64,000 bases of DNA from a virus. The translations under genes were made by a program, and so were the position numbers. The notes beneath the pieces are model-generated. The model did not search any database. It was not told the origin of the DNA and saw nothing but the letters and a program-made list of their open reading frames with translations. This document shows, piece after piece, positions 3,070 through 52,399 of this stretch. The DNA is taken from the IMG/VR virus record IMGVR_UViG_3300025000_000007, positions 9,430 through 73,429 of that record. One strand, given 5' to 3'. Position 1 is the first letter of the stretch, and each line of letters opens with the position of its first letter.

Positions 3070-3506
3070 AAACATGAGACTACGAACAAACGCAAAACTA
3101 CAGAATTTTATGGAACATCAATCCAAAAAAATAGAGCAGACCATTCAGGACATGAATGAATTTCGATTGAATACGATGAGGATGGAAATTAGAGAGCATT
3201 CTGGCAGACAAAATGCATGAGGGGAACATGAACCCGAATATTCAGATGCTTTCCTGGCAGGCTCAATATAGAGCCGCTTGGATGGCCTGGTTTCAATTAT
3301 GTGAGGATGAAATGTGAGTCAAAGACGTACGCGAGAGATGCCATTATATCGAGAATGGCTTGAAAAAATAAGAGAGGTGCTTAAGAAATATGGAACTAAT
3401 AGATGAATAATCCCGCCATCTACGGGCTGCAAGATGACGGGATCAACACACCAACGTGATATAAAAGTGAATATAATATAAATAAGTTCGTTTAATGAGG
3501 TAAACA

Positions 3507-4822: not shown

Positions 4823-5554
4823 ATGAAAGTAATATATGAACCAAAAGGAAAAGCTAAAGAATACGCTGACCTAGCTGTAAATCTGTATAACGGTTGTTCT
4901 CATGGCTGTGAATACTGCTATGCTCCTGCTGTCATGCACAAGACTAAAGAAGATTTTTTTAAGATACCATCACCAAGAAAGAACATTATCGAACTGTTAA
5001 AAAAAGACATAACTGAAATGGTTGTGAATTGCGACGAAAGAGAAGTGCTTATGTGTTTCTCTTGTGATCCGTATCAACCAATCGACACTGAATACAAACT
5101 AACACGGGAAGCGGTCAGGCTATTTTCAGAGCATGATATCAATTTTGCCATACTCACAAAGGGCGGTAAACGCTCAGAAAGAGATTTTGATATCATGGAA
5201 TGGAGTTCTGACCTTTGCAGATATGGAGCTACCCTGGTATTCTGCAATGACGATCACTCAAAAAAATATGAACCATTCGCGGCTCCAACTTCGGAAAGGA
5301 TAGAGAGCTTAAGGAAAGCTCATGAGATGGGTATCAGGACATGGGTGAGCTTAGAACCTGCTTGGAGTTATGCAGATGTATCAGACTTGATTCAGAGGAC
5401 TTCCGGATATGTGGATGAGTATAAGATAGGAAAGCTGAATTATCATGCTCATGCAAAAGAAATTGATTGGAAAGTGTTTAAGGAAGAGGTCGTTTATTTG
5501 TGTGATGGATTGGGAGTTAATTATACTTTGAAAAATGATTTAGCAATTCTTTAA
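4823..5554 (+). CDS. Radical SAM protein (SPL/DNA-repair photolyase-like family)
   Basis: NLYNGCSHGCEYCYA (CxxxCxxC), DPYQP, ILTK, WVSLEP motifs. Confidence 0.85.
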   Translation: MKVIYEPKGKAKEYADLAVNLYNGCSHGCEYCYAPAVMHKTKEDFFKIPSPRKNIIELLKKDITEMVVNCDEREVLMCFSCDPYQPIDTEYKLTREAVRLFSEHDINFAILTKGGKRSERDFDIMEWSSDLCRYGATLVFCNDDHSKKYEPFAAPTSERIESLRKAHEMGIRTWVSLEPAWSYADVSDLIQRTSGYVDEYKIGKLNYHAHAKEIDWKVFKEEVVYLCDGLGVNYTLKNDLAIL

Positions 5555-5639
5555 TTTACTTTTCTCCCTCTTTTGTCTTCACAACCTGAACTATTCTCTT
5601 TTAATTCACTCTTTTTTAGTTGAATCTTGGATGAAAGTT

Positions 5640-24202: not shown

Positions 24203-25609
24203 ATGTCAAATATGGATTTATTAAACGATTCTAAAATGAAAATTCTCCTCGGCCTCAGAGGATTTGCTATTGTAAAAATCAATGAAAAATCAGCACAGTG
24301 GAGAATAAACAGTGAGGACATTCTTGATATTGATGTTTCCTTCCCTCCTACACTATGGGAAGCAAAACATAAAGGGAAAGTCGTTGACTGGTCTTCTGGA
24401 ATTGGGATTCCTGCGAATATCAAGGGTATGATTGAAACACTTGTTGAGGACTATAAGACGGCTTTAAAAAACATAGGGATCGAAGGAGAACCGCAGGAAA
24501 GCCCTGCTGAAGTAGTCCCTATGGAATTCCCAAAAGAGGAAGTAATTGACGCGCAGACTGGCGCAGAAGAAGCCGATAAAATGGCTCAGCTCGAAGCTAT
24601 AATGAACGGTGAAATTGAAGCACCCACCGGCATAAATAAAAACAATGTACCTGAAACTGTAAATGCTACAATCGAACCACCAAAGAAGAATGAATGGACA
24701 CAAGGTGGATATAAAGCAAAAGTTCAGAAAATCGGTTTCGCAGAAGTTACACCAGTTAGACCCGGGACTCAGATAAGACCAAGTAGGACACTCCGAGGAC
24801 TTACGCCCAGGCTTGCAGAATGCGGCAAGATCAAGATAGGAAGGAAGGGAGAAACTAAAACCTCATCGAAGGGGAACCAGTTCAGATCCCCAGAAAAGCT
24901 GGATCATTTCGTAATTACAACAATGGACAAAGAAAATGATGATTTCGTGCAAGACGAAGCATTAATGACAAAACTAGGGAGATGGGATACATTTGGAGGT
25001 TACCATTGCAGAGAGATCCCTGTAAGGCTTCCTTATGATGATCCTTCGCTTAACTTCCCGACATCATACGCTTACTATGATAGTGCGGCGTGTAAGTGCA
25101 GAGGGGACGGATTCATTGCATTAACCGCCGAAGGGGAAACTGTAGAATGTAATCCAGAAACCTGCCCAAATGTAAAAGATAAGAGATGTAAGCCCAATGG
25201 AGTCTTATCTCTCATACTGGATGATGCCCCTAGAGTCGGGGGAGTCTATAAATTCAGGACAACCGGCTGGAATTCCATAAACAATATATTTTCATCTATG
25301 GAGTTCATTAGAGGTCTTACAAACGGACTTCTTGCGGGGCTGCCCCTGATGCTTACACTTACCCCTAAACATACGGTAATCCCTGGCACAAAGACCAGTA
25401 CCACCATTTACATGGTCAACCTTGAGTACCGGGGATCTTTACAGGAAATGGTCGCAGCGATCCAACAGACCATGAGTACACGTGCACTTATGCAGTATTC
25501 AGTAAGGGATTTTGAGAAACTCGCTGAAGAAGCACTGGCATTGCCAGAAGCACCAGAGGAATGTAAAGAGGTTGCAGAAGAGTTTTATCCTGAGTCAGTG
25601 AAAATTTAA
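24203..25609 (+). CDS. phiC31 gp3-like (recombination directionality factor-like) domain protein
   Basis: RLAECGKIKIGRKG...PEKLDHF...CKCRGDG...C...C...CKP...GVYKFRTTGWNS. Confidence 0.65.
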   Translation: MSNMDLLNDSKMKILLGLRGFAIVKINEKSAQWRINSEDILDIDVSFPPTLWEAKHKGKVVDWSSGIGIPANIKGMIETLVEDYKTALKNIGIEGEPQESPAEVVPMEFPKEEVIDAQTGAEEADKMAQLEAIMNGEIEAPTGINKNNVPETVNATIEPPKKNEWTQGGYKAKVQKIGFAEVTPVRPGTQIRPSRTLRGLTPRLAECGKIKIGRKGETKTSSKGNQFRSPEKLDHFVITTMDKENDDFVQDEALMTKLGRWDTFGGYHCREIPVRLPYDDPSLNFPTSYAYYDSAACKCRGDGFIALTAEGETVECNPETCPNVKDKRCKPNGVLSLILDDAPRVGGVYKFRTTGWNSINNIFSSMEFIRGLTNGLLAGLPLMLTLTPKHTVIPGTKTSTTIYMVNLEYRGSLQEMVAAIQQTMSTRALMQYSVRDFEKLAEEALALPEAPEECKEVAEEFYPESVKI

Positions 25610-26692: not shown

Positions 26693-26860
26693 ATGCAAGA
26701 AGACACAGAAAATGAAACGAAAACAATTAACCTAGACATTAAGCTAAAAAGAAAGATAGAGGAATACAATTTTAAGAACCGAAAAAATAAAATAAATGTT
26801 TCTAAGGTTTGCAGGGATGCGCTTTGGGAAGAATTGAGGAAACGTGGAGTAGAAGAATGA
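26693..26860 (+). CDS. CcdA-like/RHH small protein (55 aa)
   Basis: Own translation ...KTINLDIKLKRKIEEY...KINVSKVCRDALWEEL; ATGA overlap with the next gene. Confidence 0.6.
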   Translation: MQEDTENETKTINLDIKLKRKIEEYNFKNRKNKINVSKVCRDALWEELRKRGVEE

Positions 26861-28896
26861 CAATTAAACATGTTAAACAGGAATTACAAGAAAACTTCAT
26901 TGAAATGACTAAAGAATCTACTCATTTATTTGAAGTAGATTTAGATAAAGACGCACTGTGGGATTTGTATCTCAGTAGTTTTCCAGCCGGTACAAACGAG
27001 ATATTCAGAGAAAGGCGCGAGCATGACTGTAGTGCTTGCAGGCAGTTCATAAAGAGAATAGGTAACGCAGTTATCATAAAAGACAATACCATTCGAACAG
27101 TTTTTGACTTTGAAACTGAAAGTTTTGAGTATAAACCTGTAATGAAGGCACTATCAGATTTTGTCAGATCGAAAGTGGTTTATAATATTTGGGTGAGTAA
27201 ATTTTCAAAAATCGGAATTGATAAGAATTACGAGCAGACAGAAGGGAAAATAATTGAATGGGAACACTTCTTCCTGGAATTGCCAAGTAAATACGTGAAT
27301 AAATCGGGTAAATCTGAAGGAGATGTAAAAGGAGATTTTAGGGCAACAAAAGAAGTATTCAAAAGATCACTGGAAGAAATTACAGAAGATAGTCTTCTAA
27401 CCATCATTGAATTAATAGCGTCCAACACTCTTTATAAAGGGGAAGAATGGAAAGGAGTGCTTTCTGAATTCCTCAAATATAAAAAAGCATATGCTAAGTT
27501 AGATTCCGAAACAGAAAAAAATAATTTTACATGGGAGCAGTCCGTAAAAGCCGGGGCAGTGATCGGAAGAATCAGGAATCATAGTATTGGCGTTCTTCTC
27601 GTTGATATCAGCGGGGGCATGGATTTAGACGAGGCTGTCAGGAGATATGAAAATATTGTAGCCCCTACCAATTATAAGAGACCGAAAGCGATATTCACTA
27701 AGAAGATGCTAGAGGACGCAAAAAAGACGATTGAAGATATGGGATACATCAATTCATTGCCCCGGAGATTTGCAACACTCCACGACATCACAGTTAATAA
27801 TATTCTCTTCTCAAATAAGGATTCAGCAAAGAAAATCAAGGGAAATGTGTTTGAAGAGATGTCAAAAGATGTTGCTGTGAACTCAAAGAAGTTTTCAAAA
27901 ATCGAAGAAATGTCGATTGATAACTTTGTTCAAAATGTTCTTCCAACTGCAAAAGAACTTGAGGTATTATTTGAGAATAGTCATTCTAAAAGTATGGTGT
28001 CTTTGATCGCGCCTGTAAATAAAGATAGTCCTTCAATGTTCAAATGGGATAACGCTTTCAGTTGGGCGTATTCTGGAAATATAACAGATTCCTCCATGAA
28101 AGAAAATGTCAAATCTGCGGGAGGCAACGTTGAAGGAGTTCTGAGGTTTTCTATTCAGTGGAATGATGGAGAGTATAATCCAAACGACTTTGATGCTCAC
28201 TGTATTGAACCAAGGGGAAACGAAATTTTCTATGCAAATAAACGTAATCCCAGAACTACTGGGCAATTAGATGTTGATATTATCAGCCCACAAACAAATA
28301 AACCAGCGGTTGAGAATATAACCTGGACTGATAAATTTAAAATGCAGGAAGGTATTTACAAATTCTTTGTTCGCAATTATAATAATAGAGGAGGGAGAGA
28401 AGGATTTAAAGCAGAAATAGAGTTTGATGGACAAATATATTCATTTGAATATAATAAAGAACTAAGACAGAGTGAAAATGTACAGGTTGCCGAAGTTACT
28501 TTCAATCACAATACAGGCTTTACAATTGTGGAAAACCTACCCTCAAATGTCTCTACAAAAGAAGTATGGAACCTTAAAACGAATCAGTTTGTTCCAGTGT
28601 CGGTAGTCATGTATTCTCCTAATTATTGGGATGAACAAACCGGGATTGGGCACAGGCATTATCTATTCATGTTGAAAGACTGCATTAACCCCGAGCAGCC
28701 GAATGGGTTCTATAACGAGTTCCTGAAAAGAGAACTTGAACAGAATAAAAGAGTATTTGAGGCACTTGGTGGTAAAATGCGAGTGCAGGACACAGATGAT
28801 CAACTATCAGGTATAGGATTCTCATCTACAAAAAGAAACGAAGTTATTGTAAAGGTAAAAGCACAGACTGAAAGAGTAATTAAAGTAAAAATTTAA
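26857..28896 (+). CDS. Large conserved phage protein of unknown function with a YfaP/DUF2135-like domain
   Basis: HDCSAC; FSIQWN...DFDAHCIEP...LDVD...AVENITW; start reassigned to ATG 26857. Confidence 0.7.
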   Translation: MTIKHVKQELQENFIEMTKESTHLFEVDLDKDALWDLYLSSFPAGTNEIFRERREHDCSACRQFIKRIGNAVIIKDNTIRTVFDFETESFEYKPVMKALSDFVRSKVVYNIWVSKFSKIGIDKNYEQTEGKIIEWEHFFLELPSKYVNKSGKSEGDVKGDFRATKEVFKRSLEEITEDSLLTIIELIASNTLYKGEEWKGVLSEFLKYKKAYAKLDSETEKNNFTWEQSVKAGAVIGRIRNHSIGVLLVDISGGMDLDEAVRRYENIVAPTNYKRPKAIFTKKMLEDAKKTIEDMGYINSLPRRFATLHDITVNNILFSNKDSAKKIKGNVFEEMSKDVAVNSKKFSKIEEMSIDNFVQNVLPTAKELEVLFENSHSKSMVSLIAPVNKDSPSMFKWDNAFSWAYSGNITDSSMKENVKSAGGNVEGVLRFSIQWNDGEYNPNDFDAHCIEPRGNEIFYANKRNPRTTGQLDVDIISPQTNKPAVENITWTDKFKMQEGIYKFFVRNYNNRGGREGFKAEIEFDGQIYSFEYNKELRQSENVQVAEVTFNHNTGFTIVENLPSNVSTKEVWNLKTNQFVPVSVVMYSPNYWDEQTGIGHRHYLFMLKDCINPEQPNGFYNEFLKRELEQNKRVFEALGGKMRVQDTDDQLSGIGFSSTKRNEVIVKVKAQTERVIKVKI

Positions 28897-31089: not shown

Positions 31090-32517
31090 TCACACCTTCT
31101 TATAAATTGAATACTCTTCCGTCAATGATTTTGAAATATCAAGAACGTCCTGAGAACTGCATGTTACAATTATTTTCACAGGTTCCTCCGGAGGTTCAGG
31201 CTCTCCAACTGCCCCTCCTGAGCTTTCATCTTCTTCTATAATACAATATCGAGAAGCTTCATTCGTACCGTTATATCTCCCTGCTTCACCTCCGGAATAA
31301 ATACAAGGGGAATTAACAGAGTCCAGAACATAACCTGATTCTGTATAGTGTCCACCCATAGCAGAAAGATGATATCCATTCACGAAAAGCGGATCTTTCA
31401 GAACAGGGGCAGAGCCTGTTAACCCGTTAGAGACATTTCCATAAAAACAATTATCTGAAATATCAAGGATATATCTGCCCTGATTTGCAATTGCAAGTCC
31501 CTGAGTTCCGACGAGATTCTTTTTTGTATTTGTTATGATGTTGTTTTTTACAGTAGCTGAATAACCTGAACTTGAAGAGGTCGTCTGGTATCTCCCAAAA
31601 AGAATTCCATAACCGAGGCAACCGTTTATTGTATTATCCTTAATAGTGACATTATCCCATCCATCAACAACCATGCCGCCAACTCCTGGAATACCATTTC
31701 CAGCAGGCATCAAACCACAATTAATAATTAGGTTATTACGTACTAACAGATTTTTAGCTGCATTAATGGCCGTTGCGCGGAGTCCTGCCGCCCATACCCC
31801 CGGTCCTAAAGTGTTCTGGATTGTATTATTATAGATAGAGATCTCAGAGGTTGTTTCATCCTCTTCTGAATTTTCAACCTGAATCCCTGGGGAATATGCT
31901 TCAGTCGTCCCAAACACTAGATTATCATGGAATGATACTCCCTTAGATCCCTTGCTCCGGAGTGCTGAATTTGTCCGGCAATATGTGGTATTGTTCCAAG
32001 CCTCTACACCTGAACAGCGATCCGCATAAAGCCCCTCATGTCCGGCCTCTTTTATTAAATTTCCACAATAAAGAATATTTTCGCAATCGGTTAATCTTGC
32101 AATGTCACCCTGTGATTCTCCCGCTATAATATTTCGAATGGTTATGTTTTTTCCATTTTTAAGGCCAACGAAATTATCAAATCCCTGCCCGTGAGGTATT
32201 CCAGCGGCAGCCTGCGCTAATCTATTCCCCTTGAAAGTGATATTCTCAACTAAAATATCTGAAATAGTGCTTCCTGCTTGCCCGAAAATTGGAGTCATAG
32301 AGGGAAATAGAGTTCGAGATAACCCCGGAGAAAGTGTAATTACTGCGCTCGTATCTTCGGGCCCTGTTATTGTGGTTCCCGAATTTAGTTTGTAGGGATA
32401 ATTAGCAGTATATTTATTATCCTTGAGTAATTCGATTTCGGAATAGTGGAAACCGTCGCCCACTTTGTCAAAAGTTTCCTGCTGTAAAGTTCCGCTGGAT
32501 AGTTCAAGAGTTGCCAT
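31090..32517 (-). CDS. Disaggregatase-related right-handed beta-helix glycanase
   Basis: PbH repeats; C-terminal DPLF...YHL...G......DSVNSPCI...GRY..T..AS, recalled from Methanosarcina disaggregatase-like proteins. Confidence 0.65.
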   Translation of the reverse strand: MATLELSSGTLQQETFDKVGDGFHYSEIELLKDNKYTANYPYKLNSGTTITGPEDTSAVITLSPGLSRTLFPSMTPIFGQAGSTISDILVENITFKGNRLAQAAAGIPHGQGFDNFVGLKNGKNITIRNIIAGESQGDIARLTDCENILYCGNLIKEAGHEGLYADRCSGVEAWNNTTYCRTNSALRSKGSKGVSFHDNLVFGTTEAYSPGIQVENSEEDETTSEISIYNNTIQNTLGPGVWAAGLRATAINAAKNLLVRNNLIINCGLMPAGNGIPGVGGMVVDGWDNVTIKDNTINGCLGYGILFGRYQTTSSSSGYSATVKNNIITNTKKNLVGTQGLAIANQGRYILDISDNCFYGNVSNGLTGSAPVLKDPLFVNGYHLSAMGGHYTESGYVLDSVNSPCIYSGGEAGRYNGTNEASRYCIIEEDESSGGAVGEPEPPEEPVKIIVTCSSQDVLDISKSLTEEYSIYKKV

Positions 32518-32713: not shown

Positions 32714-32993
32714 AGTTCCGTTTTGTAAAATGTGTATTCATGAGTGTAACCTTGGATTATCAGTCAAACATTATATAATTACAATATATGTGTCCTGTAT
32801 TATAAACATTTGTGAATAGATATTTTATGTCATAAAAAGAGAAACGGCAGACATTGATAGAAAAGTATTCTAAATTATACATAAAGAGAGTATATTGTTA
32901 TTCGATGGTTATTATATTAGTTGATTATAATTAATTTAGTTGATTCTTCTAGTATTATATTATTGAGATGATATTATAGTTGTAAACTCATTT

Positions 32994-33052
32994 GAGTACA
33001 AACATTTATATACTTTGTACGCGTAGTATTATCTACAGGTGAAATACAATGA
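32994..33052 (+). promoter_or_regulatory. Repeated promoter, copy 1
   Basis: 46 bp identical to 34041-34086; GTACAAA/TTTGTAC inverted repeat around TTTATATA. Confidence 0.8.
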
Positions 33053-33793
33053 TGATAAACAGAAGAAACGTGAACCTTTTTGGTACGATGTTTGAATATG
33101 TTGAAGATGCTGACTTTGGATACTACGAAACTGCAGACGGGAAAATAAGAGAAACTCCATTCATTGAAGCAGTGAAACCTCAAGAATCATCTGATTTCAT
33201 GATATTCCCCGAAGACCAGATACAATACGAAGGTAAAACCTATACTAAGGTCAATTTTGGGGAATATGACGACGAGGAAATAGGAGAAACTTTCCTGCTG
33301 GATAGTGCCCTCGATGAAGAAGTTTTCTTGATCTATAATAAGGTAGAGGGAAAGGAAGCAACTTACAGGGCAAATTCAAAGTGCTACAGGACAGAAGATC
33401 TTGCTTATATTAGTGGAAATCTAAATTAACGAGGTCTGAAAAATGACCTCTAAAATAACTTTTTCAGGAATCAAACACACTCTTGTCAAATCTGCTTCTG
33501 ACATAACTAAAACGGAAATATCCATCGGGAAATTAAACGCACGTAGCGTTGTAAACAGGTTAGGACCAAGGCTTAGAATAGACGTCCTTGTTCTGAAAAC
33601 ACTTCCTGTATTAATCTGTGATGAGCCGTTCACCGTCAACGAGGACAATATCAGAAAAGGGACGAGGCGTTGTTATGAAACACTGACCAAATCGTTTTTA
33701 GACTCTGGTAAGCTCCCGGTACACGCTGATTTTTTCAGGAAAATTAAGGATGGTGATAATATAGTTGTGATTTTGCACGAGGTCACACCATGA
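33049..33793 (+). CDS. Two hypothetical ORFs (33049..33429, 33443..33793)
   Basis: Downstream of the repeated promoter, RBS present. Confidence 0.55.
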
Positions 33794-34041
33794 ATTTGTC
33801 AACAGAAATACAATGTCATAGTGACACGGAATTAAATTATTTTAAATTGCTCGTCGAGGTATCAAAATCTAAAATGACTATAATGGAGCTGGCAACGGCC
33901 ATAGGATTGTCAGATGACAATACCCAGCGAATGATAAAAAAGTTGCAAACTAAAGGATATGTGAATAAAATATTCGCTGGAAAGTGCAGGTATGTATCAC
34001 TCACTGATCGGGGTAAAAACGCTATAAATTCAATACAATAG
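33790..34041 (+). CDS. MarR-like winged-HTH regulator
   Basis: MTIMELATAIGLSDDNTQRMIKKLQTKGYV...VSLTDRG. Confidence 0.8.
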   Translation: MNLSTEIQCHSDTELNYFKLLVEVSKSKMTIMELATAIGLSDDNTQRMIKKLQTKGYVNKIFAGKCRYVSLTDRGKNAINSIQ

Positions 34042-34099
34042 AGTACAAACATTTATATACTTTGTACGCGTAGTATTATCTACAGGAGGAATACAATGA
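34041..34099 (+). promoter_or_regulatory. Repeated promoter, copy 2 (heads the type IV operon)
   Basis: 59 bp with 2 mismatches to copy 1, including RBS and ATG. Confidence 0.8.
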
Positions 34100-34323
34100 A
34101 AATTGTAACAGCAAGCGGGAAAGTAACAATCAACAAAAGATCAGCATACGGAAAATGGCTACAGGGATGGATCTCTTGTGATGGATTTACAGGCGCATCA
34201 ACTCTTTCAGATGCGTGGGATAGAGCAACGGTGATTAAGACGAATGGGTGCTCGTGGGAATGTCTTGGCAAACTGATGGCATCCGAACAGAAGTTTGGGA
34301 AGGGGTGTGCAGAACCGGAATGA
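34096..34323 (+). CDS. Hypothetical protein
   Basis: AGGAGG RBS after the promoter. Confidence 0.55.
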   Translation: MKIVTASGKVTINKRSAYGKWLQGWISCDGFTGASTLSDAWDRATVIKTNGCSWECLGKLMASEQKFGKGCAEPE

Positions 34324-34796
34324 AATTTCAAAAAATATATTTTATCTCAGATCACGCAGTTTCCGCGTTCAGGGGGCGTTTGAATTGTCCTAACCTCCCT
34401 ACAAAACAAGTACGGGACCATATACTTTCCGAACTTCAAAAAGAAAATCTGGTTACATATGAGAGGTACAACCACAAAATACAGCCCATATATCAGGGAG
34501 CATACAACGGAATTATATATCATATTCCTGTCCACCACGAAGTTAAAAAAACGGATGCGTGGGATGTTGTGCCAACTGTATTGCTTCCGGGTATGAAAAC
34601 ATATTCGAATTGGTTAGAAATGCTGACCGTGGAGGAGGCTGCAACTAAACTGAATGTGTCTCAAGAACAAGTTATCATATTTTTGAAAGAGGGTCGATTG
34701 AAGTTTGATCCTCAAGTAAACACAGTAATAAAAATATACAAATTGGACGTGAGGAGACTAAATCAAGAACTGATAAAAGAGAGGGTGACAACTTAA
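34320..34796 (+). CDS. Protein with a possible RelE-like N-terminal domain and a C-terminal excisionase-type HTH
   Basis: ISDHAVSAFRGR; MLTVEEAATKLNVSQEQVIIFLKEGRL. Confidence 0.55.
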   Translation: MKFQKIYFISDHAVSAFRGRLNCPNLPTKQVRDHILSELQKENLVTYERYNHKIQPIYQGAYNGIIYHIPVHHEVKKTDAWDVVPTVLLPGMKTYSNWLEMLTVEEAATKLNVSQEQVIIFLKEGRLKFDPQVNTVIKIYKLDVRRLNQELIKERVTT

Positions 34797-35407
34797 CAAC
34801 ACTTTCAAAATTAATATGTAAAGCACGTGGGATAACCCCCGCCATAGGCAAAGAACCAGGAACGTGTGTTTTTTGCGGATGTGAAACTGATCAAGGATAT
34901 CCTAAAAAGGTGATATCAGACAATTTTACAGCATGGGATAGACTTGGATACGGTGATGTCGTATGCCCAGCGTGTAATCATGTTTACACAGATCCGACTT
35001 ATCGAAAAAAAGCATGGGTGGTCACAAAATCCACTTTTGCAGAAATTAAAAGAGAAAATGCTAAAGTCCTGCTGCTTAATCCCCCCGAACCTCCATTCGT
35101 GATATACCTCACAATGACCTGGAAAAAACAGGGGTTTGTGAATATAATGAATAAAGTTCAGGAGTCAAAAAAAAATTACTCAATCGGACTTGATTACGAA
35201 CTTATCGAGGTGAACACATCAAAACTTGAAGAATACTGCACTCTAATTACCGATCTCCTTGAAAAGAAGATCACAAAAACTGAATTGCAAACCGGGCAAT
35301 TAAAACCGAAAAGCTATGAAAAGCTTGGGTATGACATGGAACTTATAGAAAAAATAAAAACATTAGCTGGAAACCCACTATGGAATCTGGCTATATTTGT
35401 GAGCTGA
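34793..35407 (+). CDS. csf1: Type IV CRISPR-Cas large subunit Csf1 (Cas8-like)
   Basis: The frame upstream of the track start adds CVFCG, which pairs with CPAC to form a Zn finger; LLNPPEPPFVI motif; first gene of the csf operon. Confidence 0.75.
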   Translation, partial: LTTLSKLICKARGITPAIGKEPGTCVFCGCETDQGYPKKVISDNFTAWDRLGYGDVVCPACNHVYTDPTYRKKAWVVTKSTFAEIKRENAKVLLLNPPEPPFVIYLTMTWKKQGFVNIMNKVQESKKNYSIGLDYELIEVNTSKLEEYCTLITDLLEKKITKTELQTGQLKPKSYEKLGYDMELIEKIKTLAGNPLWNLAIFVS

Positions 35408-35411
35408 TAAA

Positions 35412-35789
35412 ATGGGAATGGAAATCACAGACAAAGAATTACGTGGACTGCTGGCAAAAACACTTTCAGGTATATGGAAAAGAGTATCTTGGAAAGACAT
35501 GACATCTATGAAACGTTCTTCCGTAGATGTGTTTTCGGAAAGGCTGAGGGCCGCGGCAGGCATGGAGAACGTGCCCCAAATGCTTGAAAAGATCTGCAAA
35601 GGGTTAGGGCTTCCGTCCGCAACGATGGACACAATAGATATTGAAATGCTGGAAGACGAAAGGGAACGGGTAAGGAAAATGCTCGGGAAAGAATCCGTGC
35701 TTGTTGCACTGCTCACTCAGAAAGAATCAAAAGAACAGTTTGAAACTGCAAAGAAACTGAAAGGAAATGCAAGTCTGGAGGGATATTAA
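35412..35789 (+). CDS. cas11: Type IV-B small subunit (Cas11-like)
   Basis: 125 aa helical protein between csf1 and csf2. Confidence 0.65.
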   Translation: MGMEITDKELRGLLAKTLSGIWKRVSWKDMTSMKRSSVDVFSERLRAAAGMENVPQMLEKICKGLGLPSATMDTIDIEMLEDERERVRKMLGKESVLVALLTQKESKEQFETAKKLKGNASLEGY

Positions 35790-36685
35790 TGTCAGTATTA
35801 CGAGTACCTGGATACATTACAGCACAGTCACCGATCCACCACGGAGGGGATGAGAAAGCAGGCAATCAGAGCCTAATCAGGCGGCAGACCTATATAGTAG
35901 ATCAGGCTCCGATAGAGATCCCTGTGATCTCAGGAAATGCAATCCGGGGAGTATTGCGCCGTATGATATGGGACGATCTGCTTGAGAGGGTAGGATATAC
36001 CCTTACAAACATGAAAATATATCATATGTTGTTTACAGGCGGTATCCTGGAAGCCGTTGACAGCAAAGACGTTGGAGTCATAGATATTGAAATGAAAAAG
36101 AAACTACGTGCTGAACTGCCTCCTCTTGCGGTCCTCGGAACTGCCCTAGGAAATCAGATGTTTGAGGGAAAACTGAAGTGTGCAATTGCTCAGCCAATAT
36201 GCAAGGAACTGAAAGAATTCCTTCCAGATGACCTGCCTATCGAGCCAACTACAAGCATCTATGAACTGGTTTCTTTCGATTTCATGACCCGCCTAGATGA
36301 TGTCAAGGAGGCACGGCAGGAAGGAGAAGCAGCACACCAGATGCTCATGAATTTTGAGGTAATCAATCCCGGCACTATCTTTGTCCATTCATTCGCGCTT
36401 GACAATCCAAACGAAGTTGAAAAAGGGGTACTGGCCAGATCCCTGAACCTCTGGAGAGAACATCCCTGGGTAGGAGGGAAGTCTGGAGTAGGATACGGGA
36501 CAGTGAAGCTGAACTATGAGATTGATGATGATTCAGCTTATCTGGAATTCATCGAAACCAACAAAGAGAAAATATGTGAAACCCTGAACTGGCTAGAGAC
36601 ACGGTCAAGTGAAAAGAAACAAGACGCGGAAGAATCCGCAAAAGCATCTAAGAAGGGGGCTAAACTTCTTGCAGAAGATAATTAG
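35789..36685 (+). CDS. csf2: Type IV Cas7-like backbone Csf2
   Basis: TAQSPIHHG, IPVISGNAIRGVLRR, LFTGG, EVINPGT, G-rich loop VGGKSGVGYG. Confidence 0.9.
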   Translation: MSVLRVPGYITAQSPIHHGGDEKAGNQSLIRRQTYIVDQAPIEIPVISGNAIRGVLRRMIWDDLLERVGYTLTNMKIYHMLFTGGILEAVDSKDVGVIDIEMKKKLRAELPPLAVLGTALGNQMFEGKLKCAIAQPICKELKEFLPDDLPIEPTTSIYELVSFDFMTRLDDVKEARQEGEAAHQMLMNFEVINPGTIFVHSFALDNPNEVEKGVLARSLNLWREHPWVGGKSGVGYGTVKLNYEIDDDSAYLEFIETNKEKICETLNWLETRSSEKKQDAEESAKASKKGAKLLAEDN

Positions 36686-37391
36686 AAAACTGAGGGGGTA
36701 TAACCCCCCTTCAAACTTTGAGCCTTTCAAGGTTGAAGCAAAACTGGGGGCCCCTATACTTCTTGCTCACCCATATATACACGGTGACAGTGTGCTTATG
36801 GCGCTACTAATGAAACAGATACTTAAGGATGATTATTATAATCTTCCTTCTAAGTCTCCGATTCCAGTTCATGACATTCTCAGACTGCCTCTGAAACAGA
36901 CAAATGGAGTTTATCACGCCTCCGTATCTCAGTTTGATACTGATATTATCAAGACCGAAACTGTGTACAAAAGGTTTGATGAGGAACACATCAACCACGT
37001 GAATTCAAAAATTAAGAGAGTACGCAAGGGGCAGGGGTTTTTCAAAGATTATATGATTAAGTTTCCTGTAATTCCCACAAAATCAGTGACGTTCTATTTC
37101 AATGGGGACCTGAAAGAGTGCATGAATATCTTAGAGGACCTTACAGCACTTGGGAAAAAAACAGATATTGGTTATGGTATCGTTCGCGCTGTATCGGTTG
37201 AGCCCACACCTGAAGACTATTCGTTTGTCAAAGACGGGAAGTGTATGAGACCACTGCCAGCAACCGAATTCAAAGACCTCTATGGTATCCCTTCAGTGGC
37301 TCAAAGACTCGCATGGAGGGCTCCCTACTGGGATAAGAAAAACGTGCAGATGTGCGCTGCCCCTGGTGCTATATTCTATCAAAAATTCTGA
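36609..37391 (+). CDS. csf3: Type IV Cas5-like Csf3 (true start may be TTG 36669)
   Basis: HGDSVL, LPL...YHAS, LGKKTDIGYG, MRPLP, RAPYW motifs. Confidence 0.85.
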   Translation: MKRNKTRKNPQKHLRRGLNFLQKIIRKLRGYNPPSNFEPFKVEAKLGAPILLAHPYIHGDSVLMALLMKQILKDDYYNLPSKSPIPVHDILRLPLKQTNGVYHASVSQFDTDIIKTETVYKRFDEEHINHVNSKIKRVRKGQGFFKDYMIKFPVIPTKSVTFYFNGDLKECMNILEDLTALGKKTDIGYGIVRAVSVEPTPEDYSFVKDGKCMRPLPATEFKDLYGIPSVAQRLAWRAPYWDKKNVQMCAAPGAIFYQKF

Positions 37392-37400
37392 GGGATATTC

Positions 37401-38114
37401 ATGATGCCTGACGAATGGCGCGAACTGTTTGAGTTATGGGCTGCAACAGACGACTACGAAAAAAGGATAGAAGAAGCTGAAAACAATATCAAACAAATTT
37501 TGATGACTGAAAAACCTACTGTCCTGTATAGCGGGGGAAAGGACAGCCTGGTTTTATTGCGGTTGGTGATGCTACAAAATGATAATATCCCGGTGTATTA
37601 TAGTGACTCTGGTTATGATTATGACTCAAAACAGATCAAGATGCCTAAACAGATGACGGATGATATTATCCAAATTGGAAAGGAAGCCGGAGCGAAAATA
37701 TTATACAGTTGTGGGCACAAAACGCCGAACTCTCGCCGGTTTTTTGGTAATCTGTTCAGAGTCATGAAAAAACATGGCTGCAATGTTGAACTTTTGGGAA
37801 TACGTGGTGGGGAAAGTTCAACCAGGGCCGCAAGAGTCAAGGGAGAACTTGTGAAAAGAGAAGGGACCCGAAGAGTATCTTTTCCTCTTAGAAATTTAGA
37901 TTGGAGGGATATATGGGCATACCTGATCTCAAATAATATCAGGTATCTCGATTATTACGACAAATATGCAGTCGTCGAGGGGGGATATGATAAGGTGAGG
38001 CTCACTTCAAGATTCAGCCAGGGGATGATTCATAAAGGCGGGTCTTTGTATATCGACGGGGTTATGATGCCTGAATTTAGAAATGAGGGGCCGGATAAAT
38101 TAGAAAAACGTTAA
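37401..38114 (+). CDS. cysH: CysH/PAPS-reductase-like PP-loop protein of the type IV-B locus
   Basis: SGGKDS, GIRGGES..R, PL.....DIWAYL; lacks the C-terminal ECGLH. Confidence 0.85.
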   Translation: MMPDEWRELFELWAATDDYEKRIEEAENNIKQILMTEKPTVLYSGGKDSLVLLRLVMLQNDNIPVYYSDSGYDYDSKQIKMPKQMTDDIIQIGKEAGAKILYSCGHKTPNSRRFFGNLFRVMKKHGCNVELLGIRGGESSTRAARVKGELVKREGTRRVSFPLRNLDWRDIWAYLISNNIRYLDYYDKYAVVEGGYDKVRLTSRFSQGMIHKGGSLYIDGVMMPEFRNEGPDKLEKR

Positions 38115-38148
38115 TAAAATTCAAACATGTACATTTTTTAACAACGTA

Positions 38149-38179
38149 TGAGTACAGATGTATATATACGTTGTACTCA
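38149..38179 (+). promoter_or_regulatory. Repeated promoter, diverged copy 3
   Basis: TGAGTACA-N15(TATATATA)-TGTACTCA, same geometry as copies 1 and 2. Confidence 0.7.
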
Positions 38180-38210: not shown

Positions 38211-38985
38211 ATGACGAGGTTTGAGCAAATGATCAGCAGAAAAGGAAGAGCGACAAAAGCAGCACAAATGGAGCAAGCCATAAAGAACGCGAAAACCATA
38301 GAACAAGTATATCAGATCCTAGATTGCAGCCAATTCAGACTTACAAGCCCGGAAGAATGTAAAATTGCACAAGAATGGGCAAGACTTCAAGAAATGAAAG
38401 CAGATCATGGAATCGGCGCATTTGCTCAGGAGGTAACCGCATGACATCTGGAACGCTACCGTCTAAGAAAAGATGCGGGAACTGCTCACATTGGGTTAGA
38501 GTTAATGTCCCTGAACAATTGATGGCATATTGCAAATTTAATGGATGTAGACGGCATAGAGATGGATACACGGGGGTTGATTAAATGTCAGAAGTATGGG
38601 AACTCGTATATAAATGTAGGATGTGTGGAAACACGTTTTCCGGTGCTAGATGGTTCGGTGACGTTTTGGGTAATAGGGCTTACGATGAAAATGGAAGAGA
38701 AACACATCGGCACGAATGTGAGGATGGGAATGTAGGGATTGGGGACATCGTCGGATTTAGGAAAGTCGGAGATGATTAAAAATGTCATATCTTGAAAACA
38801 TGAAAACCGATCTTGAACGAATTAAAGAATTAACTTCTCTTGCAATTAATAATCTTTCGAGGGAAGAATCAATAACAAAATATCAGATGATTATTAATGA
38901 ACTTAATGAGATGGCTGAGAGAGTAACTGATGTGAAACAGAAAGCAAATATAGCTATTCATATGATTGAAACTTACAAAAAATGA
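38211..38985 (+). CDS. Small hypothetical ORFs (38211..38444, 38585..38779 Zn-ribbon, 38782..38985)
   Basis: Co-oriented after promoter copy 3. Confidence 0.5.
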
Positions 38986-51529: not shown

Positions 51530-52399
51530 TCACGACAGATTAGAGGTCTTACATATAGCGTTTGCCTGCTTGATTCTCAAAACACCTGCTGAAAATACCC
51601 TACCACCGATGGGACCGGTTTTCTGGAATTCTGGGGTTTTTGGGTCAGTCTGGAAATCTGCGGTAAGATAGTAATCCATGTATGGTTCGCCTACCTCAGC
51701 AGCAGGACAGACAAAACCCTGTGCGGTAGTAAGAGAAGTGCCCACTGAAATGAGCTTACCACCATTGAGGAAATCAAGTATGTCAGGGAGTTCTCTAGTT
51801 CCGACGGTATCCCTGCTTTTCCTGATTTTCTGGAATGTAGTACTGTTGACAACCCAATTGAGTTTCATACGGTCAACAGGGACTCCATCATCATCCATGA
51901 GGTTTATTGCGCCAGTGAGTGCAGTTGTAGCCACCCCAAACGTCGCAATTGCCGCGCTTGTGGAATAGTCGTTTCCTGCTCCCTGATAGAGTCCAGGAAC
52001 TTCATAGGTAGTCCCATCATTGGACACACCGTTGATTATTGCTCCATCTTCTGCTTTTGCTGCCTGATAAGCTGCGGAAATCGCGTTTGCTGCGTCTACA
52101 TCGTACCCGTTGAGCATCCAGCCTTCGTAGATTCTGCGGTCAATTTCGTAGTCTTTCCAATAGACCGGAATTTTGGAGTTTGTAAGTTCAATGTTGATTG
52201 AGTCTTTGTTTCCGCTTGTGAAACCGAAACTGACATATCCATTAGACATCTCGGTAATTTTTCCCCAGTCTACTGAGGAAACCCCGAATCCCTGTGGAGC
52301 AGTGACGTGGACCAGTTCCCTGCCTTTCAGAACCTGTCTGAGAGGAGGGACAATCTTTTCATCGAGTTTTCTTGAAAATGCTGTAATTGCGTTTGTCAT
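51530..52399 (-). CDS. Major capsid protein, HK97 fold, encapsulin/linocin-M18-like
   Basis: LDEKIV......L.GR, IP...KDY.I..R, A..ED..I.NG, LRIK...AI. Confidence 0.8.
   Translation of the reverse strand: MTNAITAFSRKLDEKIVPPLRQVLKGRELVHVTAPQGFGVSSVDWGKITEMSNGYVSFGFTSGNKDSINIELTNSKIPVYWKDYEIDRRIYEGWMLNGYDVDAANAISAAYQAAKAEDGAIINGVSNDGTTYEVPGLYQGAGNDYSTSAAIATFGVATTALTGAINLMDDDGVPVDRMKLNWVVNSTTFQKIRKSRDTVGTRELPDILDFLNGGKLISVGTSLTTAQGFVCPAAEVGEPYMDYYLTADFQTDPKTPEFQKTGPIGGRVFSAGVLRIKQANAICKTSNLS

What the first reader, a model, noticed from the sequence alone, without database searches (positions are those of the whole stretch)
34041..38114. Virus-encoded, array-less type IV-B CRISPR-Cas effector operon with a CysH-like enzyme
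Seen: a plus-strand island between the tailspike and lysis genes encodes csf1-cas11-csf2-csf3 and a PP-loop protein (SGGKDS) lacking the ECGLH motif of true PAPS reductases. I found no cas1, cas2, cas6, DinG or repeat array in 64 kb. Known: this is the type IV-B layout, whose guide source and function are unresolved. Inference: in a methanogen virus it may capture host crRNAs (anti-CRISPR or inter-virus competition), or guide the CysH-like protein to adenylate or sulfur-modify nucleic acid. Two extra genes at the head of the operon (34096, 34320) may be accessory components.
Basis: partly seen in the sequence, partly recalled or inferred. Interest (0 to 1): 0.85.

Follow-up and report, generated by a model that had tools for sequence, protein, structure and literature searches.

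The report
Array-less type IV-B CRISPR cassette, Methanosarcina-type virus
A complete tailed virus that probably infects Methanosarcina-like archaea carries an intact CRISPR-Cas type IV-B gene set with no CRISPR array, a layout already reported from other archaeal viruses and still without a known function.

Summary
Window 34793-38114 (+) encodes Csf1, Cas11, Csf2 (Cas7), Csf3 (Cas5) and a Cys-less CysH-like PP-loop protein.

The contig is a complete 73.4-kb tailed virus with terminal repeats. It has no CRISPR-like repeats and no Cas1, Cas2, Cas4, Cas6 or DinG-type helicase.

The host is probably Methanosarcina.

The finding is not new in kind:
- Virus-borne IV-B with cysH is published for Bathyarchaeia and Methanoperedens viruses.
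- At least 117 IMG/VR stretches encode a Csf2 relative.
- This scan has noted the same kind of cassette on other DNA, in at least 23 genomes.

The function remains unknown. My best guess is capture of foreign guide RNA for counter-defence.

The two head genes (34096, 34320) are not conserved partners.

Three local features are new here:
- csf1 has no canonical start codon. TTA overlaps the upstream stop, and a second lineage has ATA at the same place.
- A promoter with a palindrome around its TATA box is duplicated.
- A 62-nt insertion gives Csf2 a charged tail.

The parts
32989..33052 (+). Promoter copy 1. It has a TATA-like box flanked by a perfect 7-nt inverted repeat (palindrome 32996-33020) and heads orf126-orf116-wHTH.
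   Evidence: 64-nt direct repeat, 94% identical to 34036-34099. The palindrome is found exactly twice, against 0 expected. The same palindrome sits about 40 nt (end of palindrome to the orf126 start) upstream of orf126 in 4 distinct related contigs.
33049..33793 (+). orf126 (33049-33429) and orf116 (33443-33793). These unknown genes sit directly before csf1 in the closest relatives.
   Evidence: tblastn and jackhmmer find orf126 in 4 and orf116 in 6 of 81 loci. There are no Pfam or PADLOC hits. The Atlas gives nothing usable for orf116.
33790..34041 (+). Small winged-helix (MarR/TrmB/Csa3-C-terminal-like) DNA-binding protein, 83 aa.
   Evidence: Pfam MarR_2 at 3.6e-6 (at its cut-off). PADLOC matches the wHTH ends of CARF3/CasR/Csa3 models, best 3.6e-7. 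Present in 2 of 81 loci.
34036..34099 (+). Promoter copy 2 (palindrome 34043-34067, TATA-like box 34052-34059, GGAGG before ATG 34096). It heads the csf transcription unit.
   Evidence: Logan contigs of both samples break at the two repeat copies.
34096..34796 (+). orf75 (34096-34323) and orf158 (34320-34796, with a weak C-terminal HTH_17/excisionase-like motif). These are variable head genes, not conserved partners of the cas genes.
   Evidence: orf75 has no family hit. orf158 hits HTH_17 at 0.0017, below the cut-off. orf75 is in 1 of 81 loci and orf158 in 2 of 81.
34793..35407 (+). csf1 (type IV large subunit, Cas8-like), 204 codons counted from the codon homologous to the relatives' ATG. 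That codon is TTA, overlapping the orf158 stop. The first canonical start is GTG at 34910.
   Evidence: PADLOC Csf1_0_IV gives 133.7 bits over profile positions 3-212 with the extension, against 104.1 bits without it. 7 of 7 relatives start with ATG. The AF2 model has pLDDT 96.8. Foldseek matches the Csf1 chains of IV-A complexes 7xg1_A and 8rc3_G with TMq 0.72.
35412..35789 (+). cas11 (small subunit), 125 aa.
   Evidence: PADLOC typeIV_Cas11 at 1e-19. 90-95% identical in the closest relatives.
35789..36685 (+). csf2 (Cas7 backbone), 298 aa. Residues 273-298 are a K/E-rich tail created by a 62-nt insertion that the relatives lack.
   Evidence: PADLOC Csf2_0_IV at 6.6e-71 and Pfam RAMPs. PDB sequence matches are Cas7c 11fs_C at 2.1e-17 and IV-B Csf2 7jhy_e at 9.1e-13. 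The insertion is seen. The homologues shown at 84% identity or more are 271-272 aa (one 242-aa row apart; more distant ones 186-302 aa).
36669..37391 (+). csf3 (Cas5), 240 aa from TTG 36669. It overlaps the end of csf2 by 17 nt.
   Evidence: PADLOC Csf3_0_IV at 1.2e-57 over residues 15-234. TIGR03116 at 2.9e-14. The start is inferred from the relatives' TAATG junction.
37401..38114 (+). cysH-like gene (CasCysH), 237 aa. It is a PP-loop adenine-nucleotide alpha-hydrolase without a conserved cysteine.
   Evidence: Pfam PAPS_reduct at 3.1e-13. SGGKDS, R135, E138, D170, W172 and Y174 are invariant and no Cys is conserved. The AF2 model has pLDDT 85.2. The top Foldseek hits are the FAD synthase PAPS domain, CysH, CysD and TtuA.
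38134..38139 (+). Run of six T starting 20 nt after the cysH stop. It is the likely end of the transcription unit, read as an archaeal oligo-T terminator.
   Evidence: Sequence read. The terminator role is inference.
38152..38176 (+). Third site of the same design (GTACA-N15-TGTAC around a TATA-like box), heading orf77 (38211-38444) and the small ORFs that follow it.
   Evidence: The 3 exact matches in the window all lie in this 5.2-kb island.

Best explanation
Shown. This is a genuine type IV-B CRISPR-Cas effector cassette (Csf1, Cas11, Csf2/Cas7, Csf3/Cas5 and the subtype's CysH-like partner). Selection maintains it. It is carried as a separate + strand accessory transcription unit, between minus-strand lysis and tail-spike genes, by a complete ~73.3-kb tailed virus that has no CRISPR array and no adaptation or crRNA-processing genes.

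Inferred from the solved Mycobacterium IV-B complex and from the gene content. Csf2 and Cas11 build a filament on RNA about 55-60 nt long. Csf3 and Csf1 cap it. The RNA cannot come from the virus as crRNA. It is therefore host RNA, most plausibly Cas6-cut crRNAs of the Methanosarcina-type host, or other small RNAs.

My most likely reading is that during infection the complex takes guide RNAs away from, or competes with, the host's own type I/III effectors. That would make it a counter-defence by guide capture. The CysH-like enzyme would use ATP-to-AMP+PPi chemistry (adenylylation, no sulfur chemistry) on the bound nucleic acid or on a partner.

The identity carries about 0.95 confidence. The figure below is for the mechanism.
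For: Identity: HMM matches for all five proteins. The Csf1 fold matches solved IV-A Csf1. A Csf2 profile hits IV-C Cas7c at 1.1e-38 and IV-B Csf2 7jhy at 5.1e-26.

Selection: pN is 0.03-0.19 against pS 0.62-0.82 versus two relatives, for all five genes.

No own guides.

Virus status and completeness: large terminase, portal, tape measure and tail spikes. There is a 116-nt terminal repeat, and CheckV gives 100% completeness.

Host side: the control genome Methanosarcina acetivorans holds Cas1, Cas2, Cas6 and RAMPs, so such hosts do make crRNAs.

Published basis: the IV-B complex assembles on heterogeneous RNA rather than on co-expressed crRNA. The sponge and crRNA-scavenging hypotheses are in print, as is CasCysH as an ATP alpha-hydrolase without the catalytic Cys (section 7 of PMC8175902, passages of PMC7937560).

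Recurrence in viruses: 62 of 81 loci examined (the window included) hold all five genes within 4.5 kb. Only 3 of 81 show any short two-copy repeat at array-like spacing.
Against: No experiment or computation here shows which RNA is bound, or that anything is inhibited.

[quoted passage not shown] That speaks against specific crRNA capture.

The sponge idea does not explain why the CysH-like gene is so constantly kept.

In this virus csf1 has no canonical start codon, so the complex may lack a full-length large subunit.

The host is inferred, not shown. Two rows of close relatives (Csf2 at 89% identity, CysH-like at 81%), both on a contig of 71,296 nt, bear a 'Clostridia bacterium' MAG label.
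Confidence: 0.4

Rival explanations
1. Weapon against rival elements. The complex loads host crRNAs, or RNAs of the virus's own that I did not recognise. It binds matching DNA or RNA of competing viruses and plasmids without cutting, and silences them in the manner of type IV-A CRISPRi. The result would be superinfection exclusion.
For: The 2025 classification paper says IV-A and IV-B lack effector nucleases and apparently act by transcription inhibition, at least for IV-A (passages). The 2026 IV-C paper says IV-A and IV-B are thought to resolve inter-plasmid conflicts (passages). The Fuxivirus IV-B locus has a mini-array, which led its authors to propose targeting of host or other elements. 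Csf1 has the fold of the DNA-binding IV-A large subunit.
Against: No array or solitary repeat was found in this genome. There is no DinG or other helicase. Host spacers would as often match this virus itself. The IV-B complex did not select crRNAs in vitro.
Confidence: 0.2
2. Modification machine. The RNP is mainly a platform that presents nucleic acid to the CysH-like enzyme. The enzyme adenylylates a base, a phosphate or an RNA end (or makes a nucleotide signal), and so marks or disables host or viral RNA or DNA.
For: cysH lies next to csf3 on one side or the other in most loci: 34 loci have the plain order csf3-cysH and 15 the plain order cysH-csf3, out of 81. PP-loop and R-x-x-E-S residues are invariant and no Cys is conserved. 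The fold family includes enzymes that act on nucleic-acid bases through adenylylated intermediates, such as TtuA and NcsA. The review proposes exactly this.
Against: No substrate is known. There is no solved or tested CasCysH: the PDB sequence search gives only weak hits with E of 0.087 or more.
Confidence: 0.2
3. Decaying passenger. In this particular virus the cassette is losing function. csf1 has lost its start codon, so only a 165-aa Csf1 without the first Cys knuckle is made.
For: The codon homologous to the ATG of 7 of 7 relatives is TTA. No ATG, GTG or TTG lies in frame between 34709 and 34910. C25, which lies in the lost part, is invariant in 49 Csf1 sequences.
Against: The 39 upstream codons are open and keep the conserved residues. 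They raise the HMM score by about 30 bits and are modelled at pLDDT 93-98 as part of the fold. The Shine-Dalgarno-like motif is kept. pN is below pS for this piece (0.22 against 0.74 versus L013). The sequence is identical in contigs of a second sample. A second lineage (L017-L019, contigs from 3 metagenomes) shows the same design, with ATA overlapping the upstream TAA stop. All other genes are intact.
Confidence: 0.12

Closest known systems
Subtype IV-B CRISPR-Cas of Mycobacterium sp. JS623 (Csf complex, PDB 7JHY; PMC7937560)
   Same: Same gene set (csf1, cas11, csf2, csf3 and cysH-like). No array and no cas6. Csf2 is homologous: 9.1e-13 with the single sequence and 5.1e-26 with the profile.
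   Different: That system sits on a bacterial megaplasmid and this one on an archaeal-type tailed virus. The Csf2 here scores higher against archaeal IV-C Cas7c than against the Mycobacterium Csf2 (136 against 95 bits). tblastn identity to actinobacterial plasmid copies is only 27-31%.
Virus-borne IV-B of 'Fuxiviridae' (Bathyarchaeia viruses, PMC10848311) and of Methanoperedens virus Mp_virus_41kb_42_49 (bioRxiv 10.1101/2023.08.02.551345)
   Same: These are archaeal viruses that carry csf1, cas11, csf2, csf3 and a non-canonical cysH. The Methanoperedens virus likewise has no array nearby. The same counter-defence reading was proposed (passages read).
   Different: Fuxivirus has a two-repeat mini-array and a Cas4, and this genome has neither. 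The hosts and genome sizes differ. I had no sequences of those viruses, so I could not measure relatedness. Their supplementary trees and tables were not seen.
IV-B locus on Thermococcus nautili plasmid THER333_p (NZ_OX281346.1)
   Same: Closest plasmid copy, with Csf2 at 46% identity. The gene order is the same and ends in a PAPS-reductase-family gene.
   Different: It is a plasmid of a hyperthermophile. The record annotates the csf3-position gene as Cas6. I did not test that label.
Type IV-C Cas7c (PDB 11fs, 11hc, 11hd; PMC13676074)
   Same: Best solved-structure sequence match for Csf2: 2.1e-17 with the single sequence and 1.1e-38 with the profile.
   Different: IV-C has a Cas10-like HD large subunit instead of Csf1, is chromosomal and has no CysH. 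This locus has Csf1 and CysH and only a weak Cas10-like hit (E 0.0052, on the zinc-finger part of Csf1).
PAPS reductase CysH, CysD, FAD synthase PAPS domain, DndC and TtuA (adenine nucleotide alpha-hydrolase fold)
   Same: Same fold (Foldseek E 1e-7 to 1e-5, TMq about 0.45-0.55). Same PP-loop and the same R-x-x-E-S motif.
   Different: There is no conserved cysteine at all, so no thiosulfonate or persulfide chemistry and no Fe-S site of the TtuA kind. Identity to solved members is only 14-20%.

Membership tests
CRISPR-Cas subtype IV-B | Csf2 (type IV Cas7) present | tested here: met
   PADLOC Csf2_0_IV at 6.6e-71; Pfam RAMPs above its cut-off; PDB 7jhy Csf2 at 9.1e-13.
CRISPR-Cas subtype IV-B | Csf3 (type IV Cas5) present | tested here: met
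   PADLOC Csf3_0_IV at 1.2e-57; TIGR03116 at 2.9e-14, below the curated cut-off of 140 bits.
CRISPR-Cas subtype IV-B | Csf1 large subunit present, not a Cas10-like HD protein | tested here: met
   PADLOC Csf1_0_IV at 1.9e-39. The fold matches IV-A Csf1 chains with TMq 0.72. Caveat: there is no canonical start codon in this genome.
CRISPR-Cas subtype IV-B | cas11-like small subunit present | tested here: met
   PADLOC Cas11_0_IV at 1e-19. The PDB sequence search gave no meaningful hit.
CRISPR-Cas subtype IV-B | Adjacent cysH-like gene that has the PP-loop but lacks the catalytic Cys | tested here: met
   Pfam PAPS_reduct at 3.1e-13. SGGKDS is invariant. No Cys is conserved in 24 or in 51 homologues.
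CRISPR-Cas subtype IV-B | No CRISPR array, no cas6, no adaptation genes, no DinG | tested here: met
   Whole 73.4-kb genome searched.
CRISPR-Cas subtype IV-B | Cas7 falls in the IV-B clade of a reference phylogeny | not tested
   No reference set of IV-A, IV-B and IV-C Cas7 sequences was on hand. HMM scores put it between archaeal IV-C Cas7c and the Mycobacterium IV-B Csf2, and far from IV-A.
CRISPR-Cas subtype IV-B | Forms a Csf2/Cas11 filament on RNA | not testable with these tools
   Needs purification. This is inferred from PDB 7JHY only.
   The protein has two Cys, neither conserved and neither C-terminal. TIGR00434 cysH scores 22 bits against a cut-off of 165.
Tailed virus (Caudoviricetes), complete genome | Large terminase, portal, HK97-type capsid, tape measure; terminal repeats | tested here: met
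   (Phage_capsid and Linocin_M18 on 51530-52399). 116-nt terminal repeat. IMG/VR class 'direct terminal repeats' and CheckV 100.

The most novel reading that the evidence does not exclude
The viral IV-B complex is an enzymatic anti-CRISPR. It loads the host's Cas6-cut crRNAs, and the CysH-like enzyme adenylylates them (or the paired target), which permanently disarms host interference. In addition, the amount of Csf1 is set by an unusual translation event at an N-TAA overlap with the upstream gene. That event would be reinitiation at, or a short hop over, a non-canonical codon. It has arisen twice: TTA in this virus and ATA in L017-L019.
Probability: 0.12. Interest if true: 0.85.

Novelty: new member of a known kind. 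Interest (0 to 1): 0.35.

Why it matters
Type IV-B is the CRISPR-Cas subtype whose function is still unknown. A September 2026 paper still says that its biological function and the architecture of the complete complex are unclear.

This copy sits in a complete virus whose likely host genus, Methanosarcina, can be manipulated genetically (from my own knowledge) and carries its own CRISPR-Cas. It would therefore be a workable model for asking which RNA the complex binds and what the CysH-like enzyme does.

The find itself adds one more example, not a new kind of system. The csf1 start-codon oddity matters for annotation. Gene callers would truncate Csf1 and lose part or all of its zinc finger: the first Cys knuckle in this virus, both in L017-L019. 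If the full protein is in fact translated, this would be a small case of non-canonical initiation in archaeal viruses.

Tried and rejected
Complex prediction. CysH-like protein as partner against Csf1 plus Csf3, using my own alignments A5-A7: verdict 'no answer', score 0.01 against a mark of 0.32. This is no evidence either way.

Expression. No RNA holder was listed among the sequencing runs. Only contigs from 4 DNA runs could be laid, representing 2 samples of 1 study. Two of those runs may be the source of this DNA.

Host by kinship.
- The large terminase in genome contigs found one 8.6-kb contig, labelled as a Gammaproteobacteria MAG, at 58% identity. This is uninformative.
- The Atlas search with the portal gave only 'Viruses'.

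Searches that found little or nothing.
- blastn of the cassette against GenBank phages: no match.
- tblastn of the CysH-like protein against phages: no match.
- tblastn of Csf2 found only Skermania phage SPI1, at 23% identity.

orf116, orf126 and orf75. No family, Atlas or PADLOC hit.

Conserved RNA upstream of csf1. I looked for one in the apparent 113-nt gap. The conservation there turned out to be the N-terminal coding part of csf1, with a third-codon-position pattern. The idea is rejected.

Csf2 catalytic loop. An acidic residue at position 22 is kept in 21 of the 22 sequences of A4 that cover it. The alignment to Asp42 of the Mycobacterium Csf2 is ambiguous, so I make no claim about RNase activity.

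Selection measure. dS is saturated, so I give only pN and pS, not reliable dN/dS.

wHTH as the binder of the palindrome. This is not claimed. Four relatives carry the palindrome but show no wHTH gene in the DNA that was fetched.

Literature. Searches, and a term search within PMC9796341, found no paper in the held library that describes IV-B in a Methanosarcina virus. Supplementary files were not opened, and those of PMC10848311 and of the Methanoperedens preprint may list relatives. Papers were seen as passages or single sections only.

Full report
WHAT IS THERE

The region holds a tight + strand gene row:
- orf75 (34096-34323)
- orf158 (34320-34796, whose start overlaps the orf75 stop)
- csf1
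- cas11 (35412-35789)
- csf2 (35789-36685)
- csf3
- a cysH-like gene (37401-38114)

PADLOC profiles identify four of them:
- type IV Cas8/Csf1: 2.2e-30
- Cas11: 1e-19
- Cas7/Csf2: 6.6e-71
- Cas5/Csf3: 1.6e-57

Pfam gives RAMPs and PAPS_reduct above their cut-offs. NCBIfam gives csf1, csf2 and csf3 matches below its strict cut-offs.

Solved structures agree.
- Csf2 matches the IV-C Cas7c chain 11fs_C (2.1e-17) and the IV-B Csf2 chain 7jhy_e (9.1e-13). With a 23-sequence profile these become 1.1e-38 and 5.1e-26.
- An AlphaFold model of Csf1 has pLDDT 96.8. It superposes on the Csf1 chains of type IV-A complexes with TMq 0.72.

THE CysH-LIKE PROTEIN

It carries the SGGKDS PP-loop. The residues R135, E138, D170, W172, Y174, Y182, Y186, D187 and D219 are invariant in 24 homologues. 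Neither of its two cysteines is conserved, in 24 or in 51 sequences.

The model has pLDDT 85.2 and shows the adenine-nucleotide alpha-hydrolase fold. The top Foldseek matches are the human FAD synthase PAPS domain, Vibrio CysH, CysD and TtuA, with TMq about 0.45-0.55.

By sequence, no solved structure lies closer than E 0.087. An all-against-all search found 317 representative clusters at E of 0.001 or less.

This matches what the 2021 review says of 'CasCysH': a PP-motif, no catalytic Cys, and a putative ATP alpha-hydrolase (section 7 read).

THE GENOME

The window is bases 9430-73429 of a single 73,429-nt contig. The first 116 nt of that contig recur at its end. IMG/VR classes it as having direct terminal repeats, and CheckV gives 100% completeness.

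It is a tailed virus:
- large terminase: phrog_38, 5e-92
- portal
- Mu-F-like head protein
- HK97-type capsid
- tape measure
- beta-helix tail spikes

Nothing in the whole genome looks like a CRISPR array. Rfam finds nothing in the window. Pfam Cas1, Cas2, Cas4, Cas6_C and DEAD_2 give no match, although each rings in the control Methanosarcina acetivorans. RAMPs matches only Csf2. 'Array-less' and 'no other cas genes' therefore hold for the complete virus.

HOST

The 475-aa minus-strand protein at 31090-32517 matches Pfam Disaggr_assoc at 3e-26. Of the 61 homologues listed at E of 1e-10 or less, 11 rows carry a taxon name:
- 8 are Methanosarcina; the best is M. horonobensis at 53% identity
- 1 is 'Euryarchaeota archaeon'
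- 1 is a Clostridia MAG
- 1 is 'viral metagenome'

The best GenBank phage match of the large terminase is Caudoviricetes sp. vir524, with host given as Methanomicrobiales, at 40% identity.

The named relatives of Csf2 are a Methanosarcinales archaeon (55%), a Methanothermobacter (46%) and a 'Clostridia bacterium' MAG (89%). That MAG contig is 71 kb long, and I take it to be a relative of this virus that was binned wrongly.

The DNA is held by groundwater metagenome runs from 2 samples of 1 study.

I put a Methanosarcina-type host at about 0.6, and a methane-cycling member of the Methanosarcinales at about 0.8.

COMPARISON WITH RELATIVES

A first IMG/VR scan found 7 loci, and the five-gene row is kept in all those that reach far enough. 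A scan with a Csf2 alignment matched 236 stretches. Of these, 117 encode a Csf2 relative, and the best 80 were kept.

Iterative searches over the ORFs of these 80 loci plus the window region (81 in all) found:

| Gene | Loci with it (of 81) |
|---|---|
| csf2 | 81 |
| cas11 | 79 |
| csf1 | 77 |
| csf3 | 77 |
| cysH-like | 70 |

- 62 of 81 hold all five within 4.5 kb.
- Of the 19 incomplete loci, about 9 have the gene row running to a contig end, by the coordinates listed.
- cysH lies directly after or directly before csf3 in most loci.
- Only 3 of 81 loci have any 18-mer repeated at 45-100 nt spacing.

In GenBank phages, only Skermania phage SPI1 was found with this query. The closest plasmid copy is on a Thermococcus nautili plasmid at 46% identity. 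Haloarchaeal plasmids follow, and then Rhodococcus and Mycobacterium plasmids.

All five genes are under purifying selection: pN is 0.03-0.19 against pS 0.62-0.82.

THE HEAD OF THE OPERON

A 64-nt stretch at 32989-33052 recurs at 34036-34099 with 94% identity. Each copy holds:
- a TATA-like box inside a perfect palindrome (7 nt, 11-nt spacer, 7 nt)
- a GGAGG
- an ATG

A third site of the same design lies at 38152-38176, just after a T6 run that follows cysH. The three exact sites are the only ones in 64 kb. They head three + strand units inside one 5.2-kb accessory island, which lies between minus-strand lysis and tail-spike genes.

The same palindrome sits before orf126 in 4 distinct related contigs. 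In those contigs orf126 and orf116 run straight into csf1.

I therefore read them as a local insertion that brought a second promoter copy, not as parts of the system.

Calling these promoters archaeal, and the palindrome an operator, is inference.

AN UNEXPECTED DETAIL: THE csf1 START

All 7 close relatives have a Csf1 of 202-207 aa that starts with ATG. Their N-terminal part holds a Cys knuckle (G-x-C-x-x-C-G). C25 in that part is invariant in 49 sequences.

In the window the homologous codon is TTA (34793-34795), and it overlaps the TAA stop of orf158. The frame is open from 34709. It has no ATG, GTG or TTG before GTG 34910. An ATA at 34736 is the only in-frame start allowed by table 11 that lies upstream of the conserved part.

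Several observations suggest the 39 upstream codons are still coding:
- They keep the conserved residues.
- They raise the Csf1 HMM score from 104 to 134 bits.
- They are modelled with high confidence as part of the fold.
- A Shine-Dalgarno-like motif is kept.
- The DNA is identical in contigs of a second sample, so this is not an assembly slip.

The junction looks like an 8-nt insertion after an ancestral start codon.

A second lineage shows the same design. L017-L019 are three contigs from three metagenomes, with Csf2 at about 49% identity to the window. They have ATA at the homologous codon, again overlapping the upstream gene's TAA. There, both Cys knuckles lie before the first canonical start.

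Possible readings are:
- reinitiation after termination at a non-canonical codon
- a short hop over the stop
- a truncated, perhaps inactive Csf1

I cannot decide between them.

TWO SMALLER POINTS

Relatives end csf2 at codon 272 with a TAATG junction into csf3. The window has 62 extra nucleotides there, which give Csf2 a 26-residue charged tail. This puts the likely csf3 start at TTG 36669.

HOW IT LIKELY WORKS

What is shown is the parts list.

What is inferred comes from the Mycobacterium structure and the reviews. Csf2 and Cas11 form a filament on RNA. Csf3 and Csf1 sit at one end. The CysH-like enzyme does ATP alpha-phosphate chemistry without sulfur.

The virus encodes no guides and no Cas6, so any specific RNA must come from the host or from other elements. 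I favour guide capture as a counter-defence (0.4). The rivals are RNA-guided silencing of competitors (0.2), a modification machine centred on CysH (0.2) and decay (0.12).

[quoted passage not shown] It also leaves CysH unexplained.

NOVELTY

Array-less IV-B with cysH on archaeal viruses is in print for Bathyarchaeia 'Fuxiviridae' and for a Methanoperedens virus. [quoted passage not shown] This scan has already noted such cassettes in at least 23 other genomes.

I found no paper in the held library on a Methanosarcina virus with IV-B. Supplements were not seen.

The verdict is a new member of a known kind. The identification is well supported and the function unknown. A few local features are worth a note.

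Noticed in passing
window 34785-34800; L017 about 3151-3159 (also L018, L019): csf1 has no canonical start codon in two separate lineages. The homologous codon is TTA (window) or ATA (L017-L019). In each case it overlaps the upstream gene's TAA stop as N-TAA, while the zinc-knuckle coding part stays open and conserved. This may reflect reinitiation or hopping, or a truncated Csf1.
   Followed up: partly
window 32996-33020, 34043-34067, 38152-38176: Three TATA-like boxes each lie inside a GTACA-N15-TGTAC palindrome. All are in one 5.2-kb + strand island, and each heads a transcription unit. The first two are part of a 64-nt duplication. The palindrome is conserved before orf126 in 4 distinct related contigs. 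It is likely an operator for an unidentified regulator.
   Followed up: partly
window 36605-36685: A 62-nt insertion at the csf2/csf3 junction, absent from 4 relatives, extends Csf2 by 26 K/E-rich residues. It replaces the relatives' TAATG overlap with a TTG start for csf3.
   Followed up: partly
window 31090-32517 (-): A 475-aa beta-helix protein carries a Pfam Disaggr_assoc domain. Its named homologues are mostly Methanosarcina proteins (8 of 11 named rows). It is a candidate depolymerase of the Methanosarcina cell envelope and a clue to the host.
   Followed up: partly
window 24203-25609 (+) and 26809-28896 (+): A 468-aa protein has a Gp3-like recombination-directionality-factor domain (1.1e-41). 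A 695-aa protein matches phrog_1735, of unknown function, over its full length at 2e-267.
   Followed up: no
L091 (NZ_OX281346.1) 4842-5585: In the Thermococcus nautili plasmid IV-B locus, the gene in the csf3 position is annotated as 'CRISPR-associated endoribonuclease Cas6'. This is either a mislabel of a Cas5-like RAMP or a real difference.
   Followed up: no
L045 3337-3428: One IMG/VR IV-B locus has a roughly 20-nt repeat in two copies 71 nt apart, just upstream of csf1. It may be a mini-array like the one reported for Fuxivirus.
   Followed up: no
window 38585-38779 (+): A 64-aa ORF downstream of the cassette has two C-x-x-C-type pairs (zinc-ribbon-like). It gives only weak desulfoferrodoxin-N and L37ae-type hits.
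   Followed up: no
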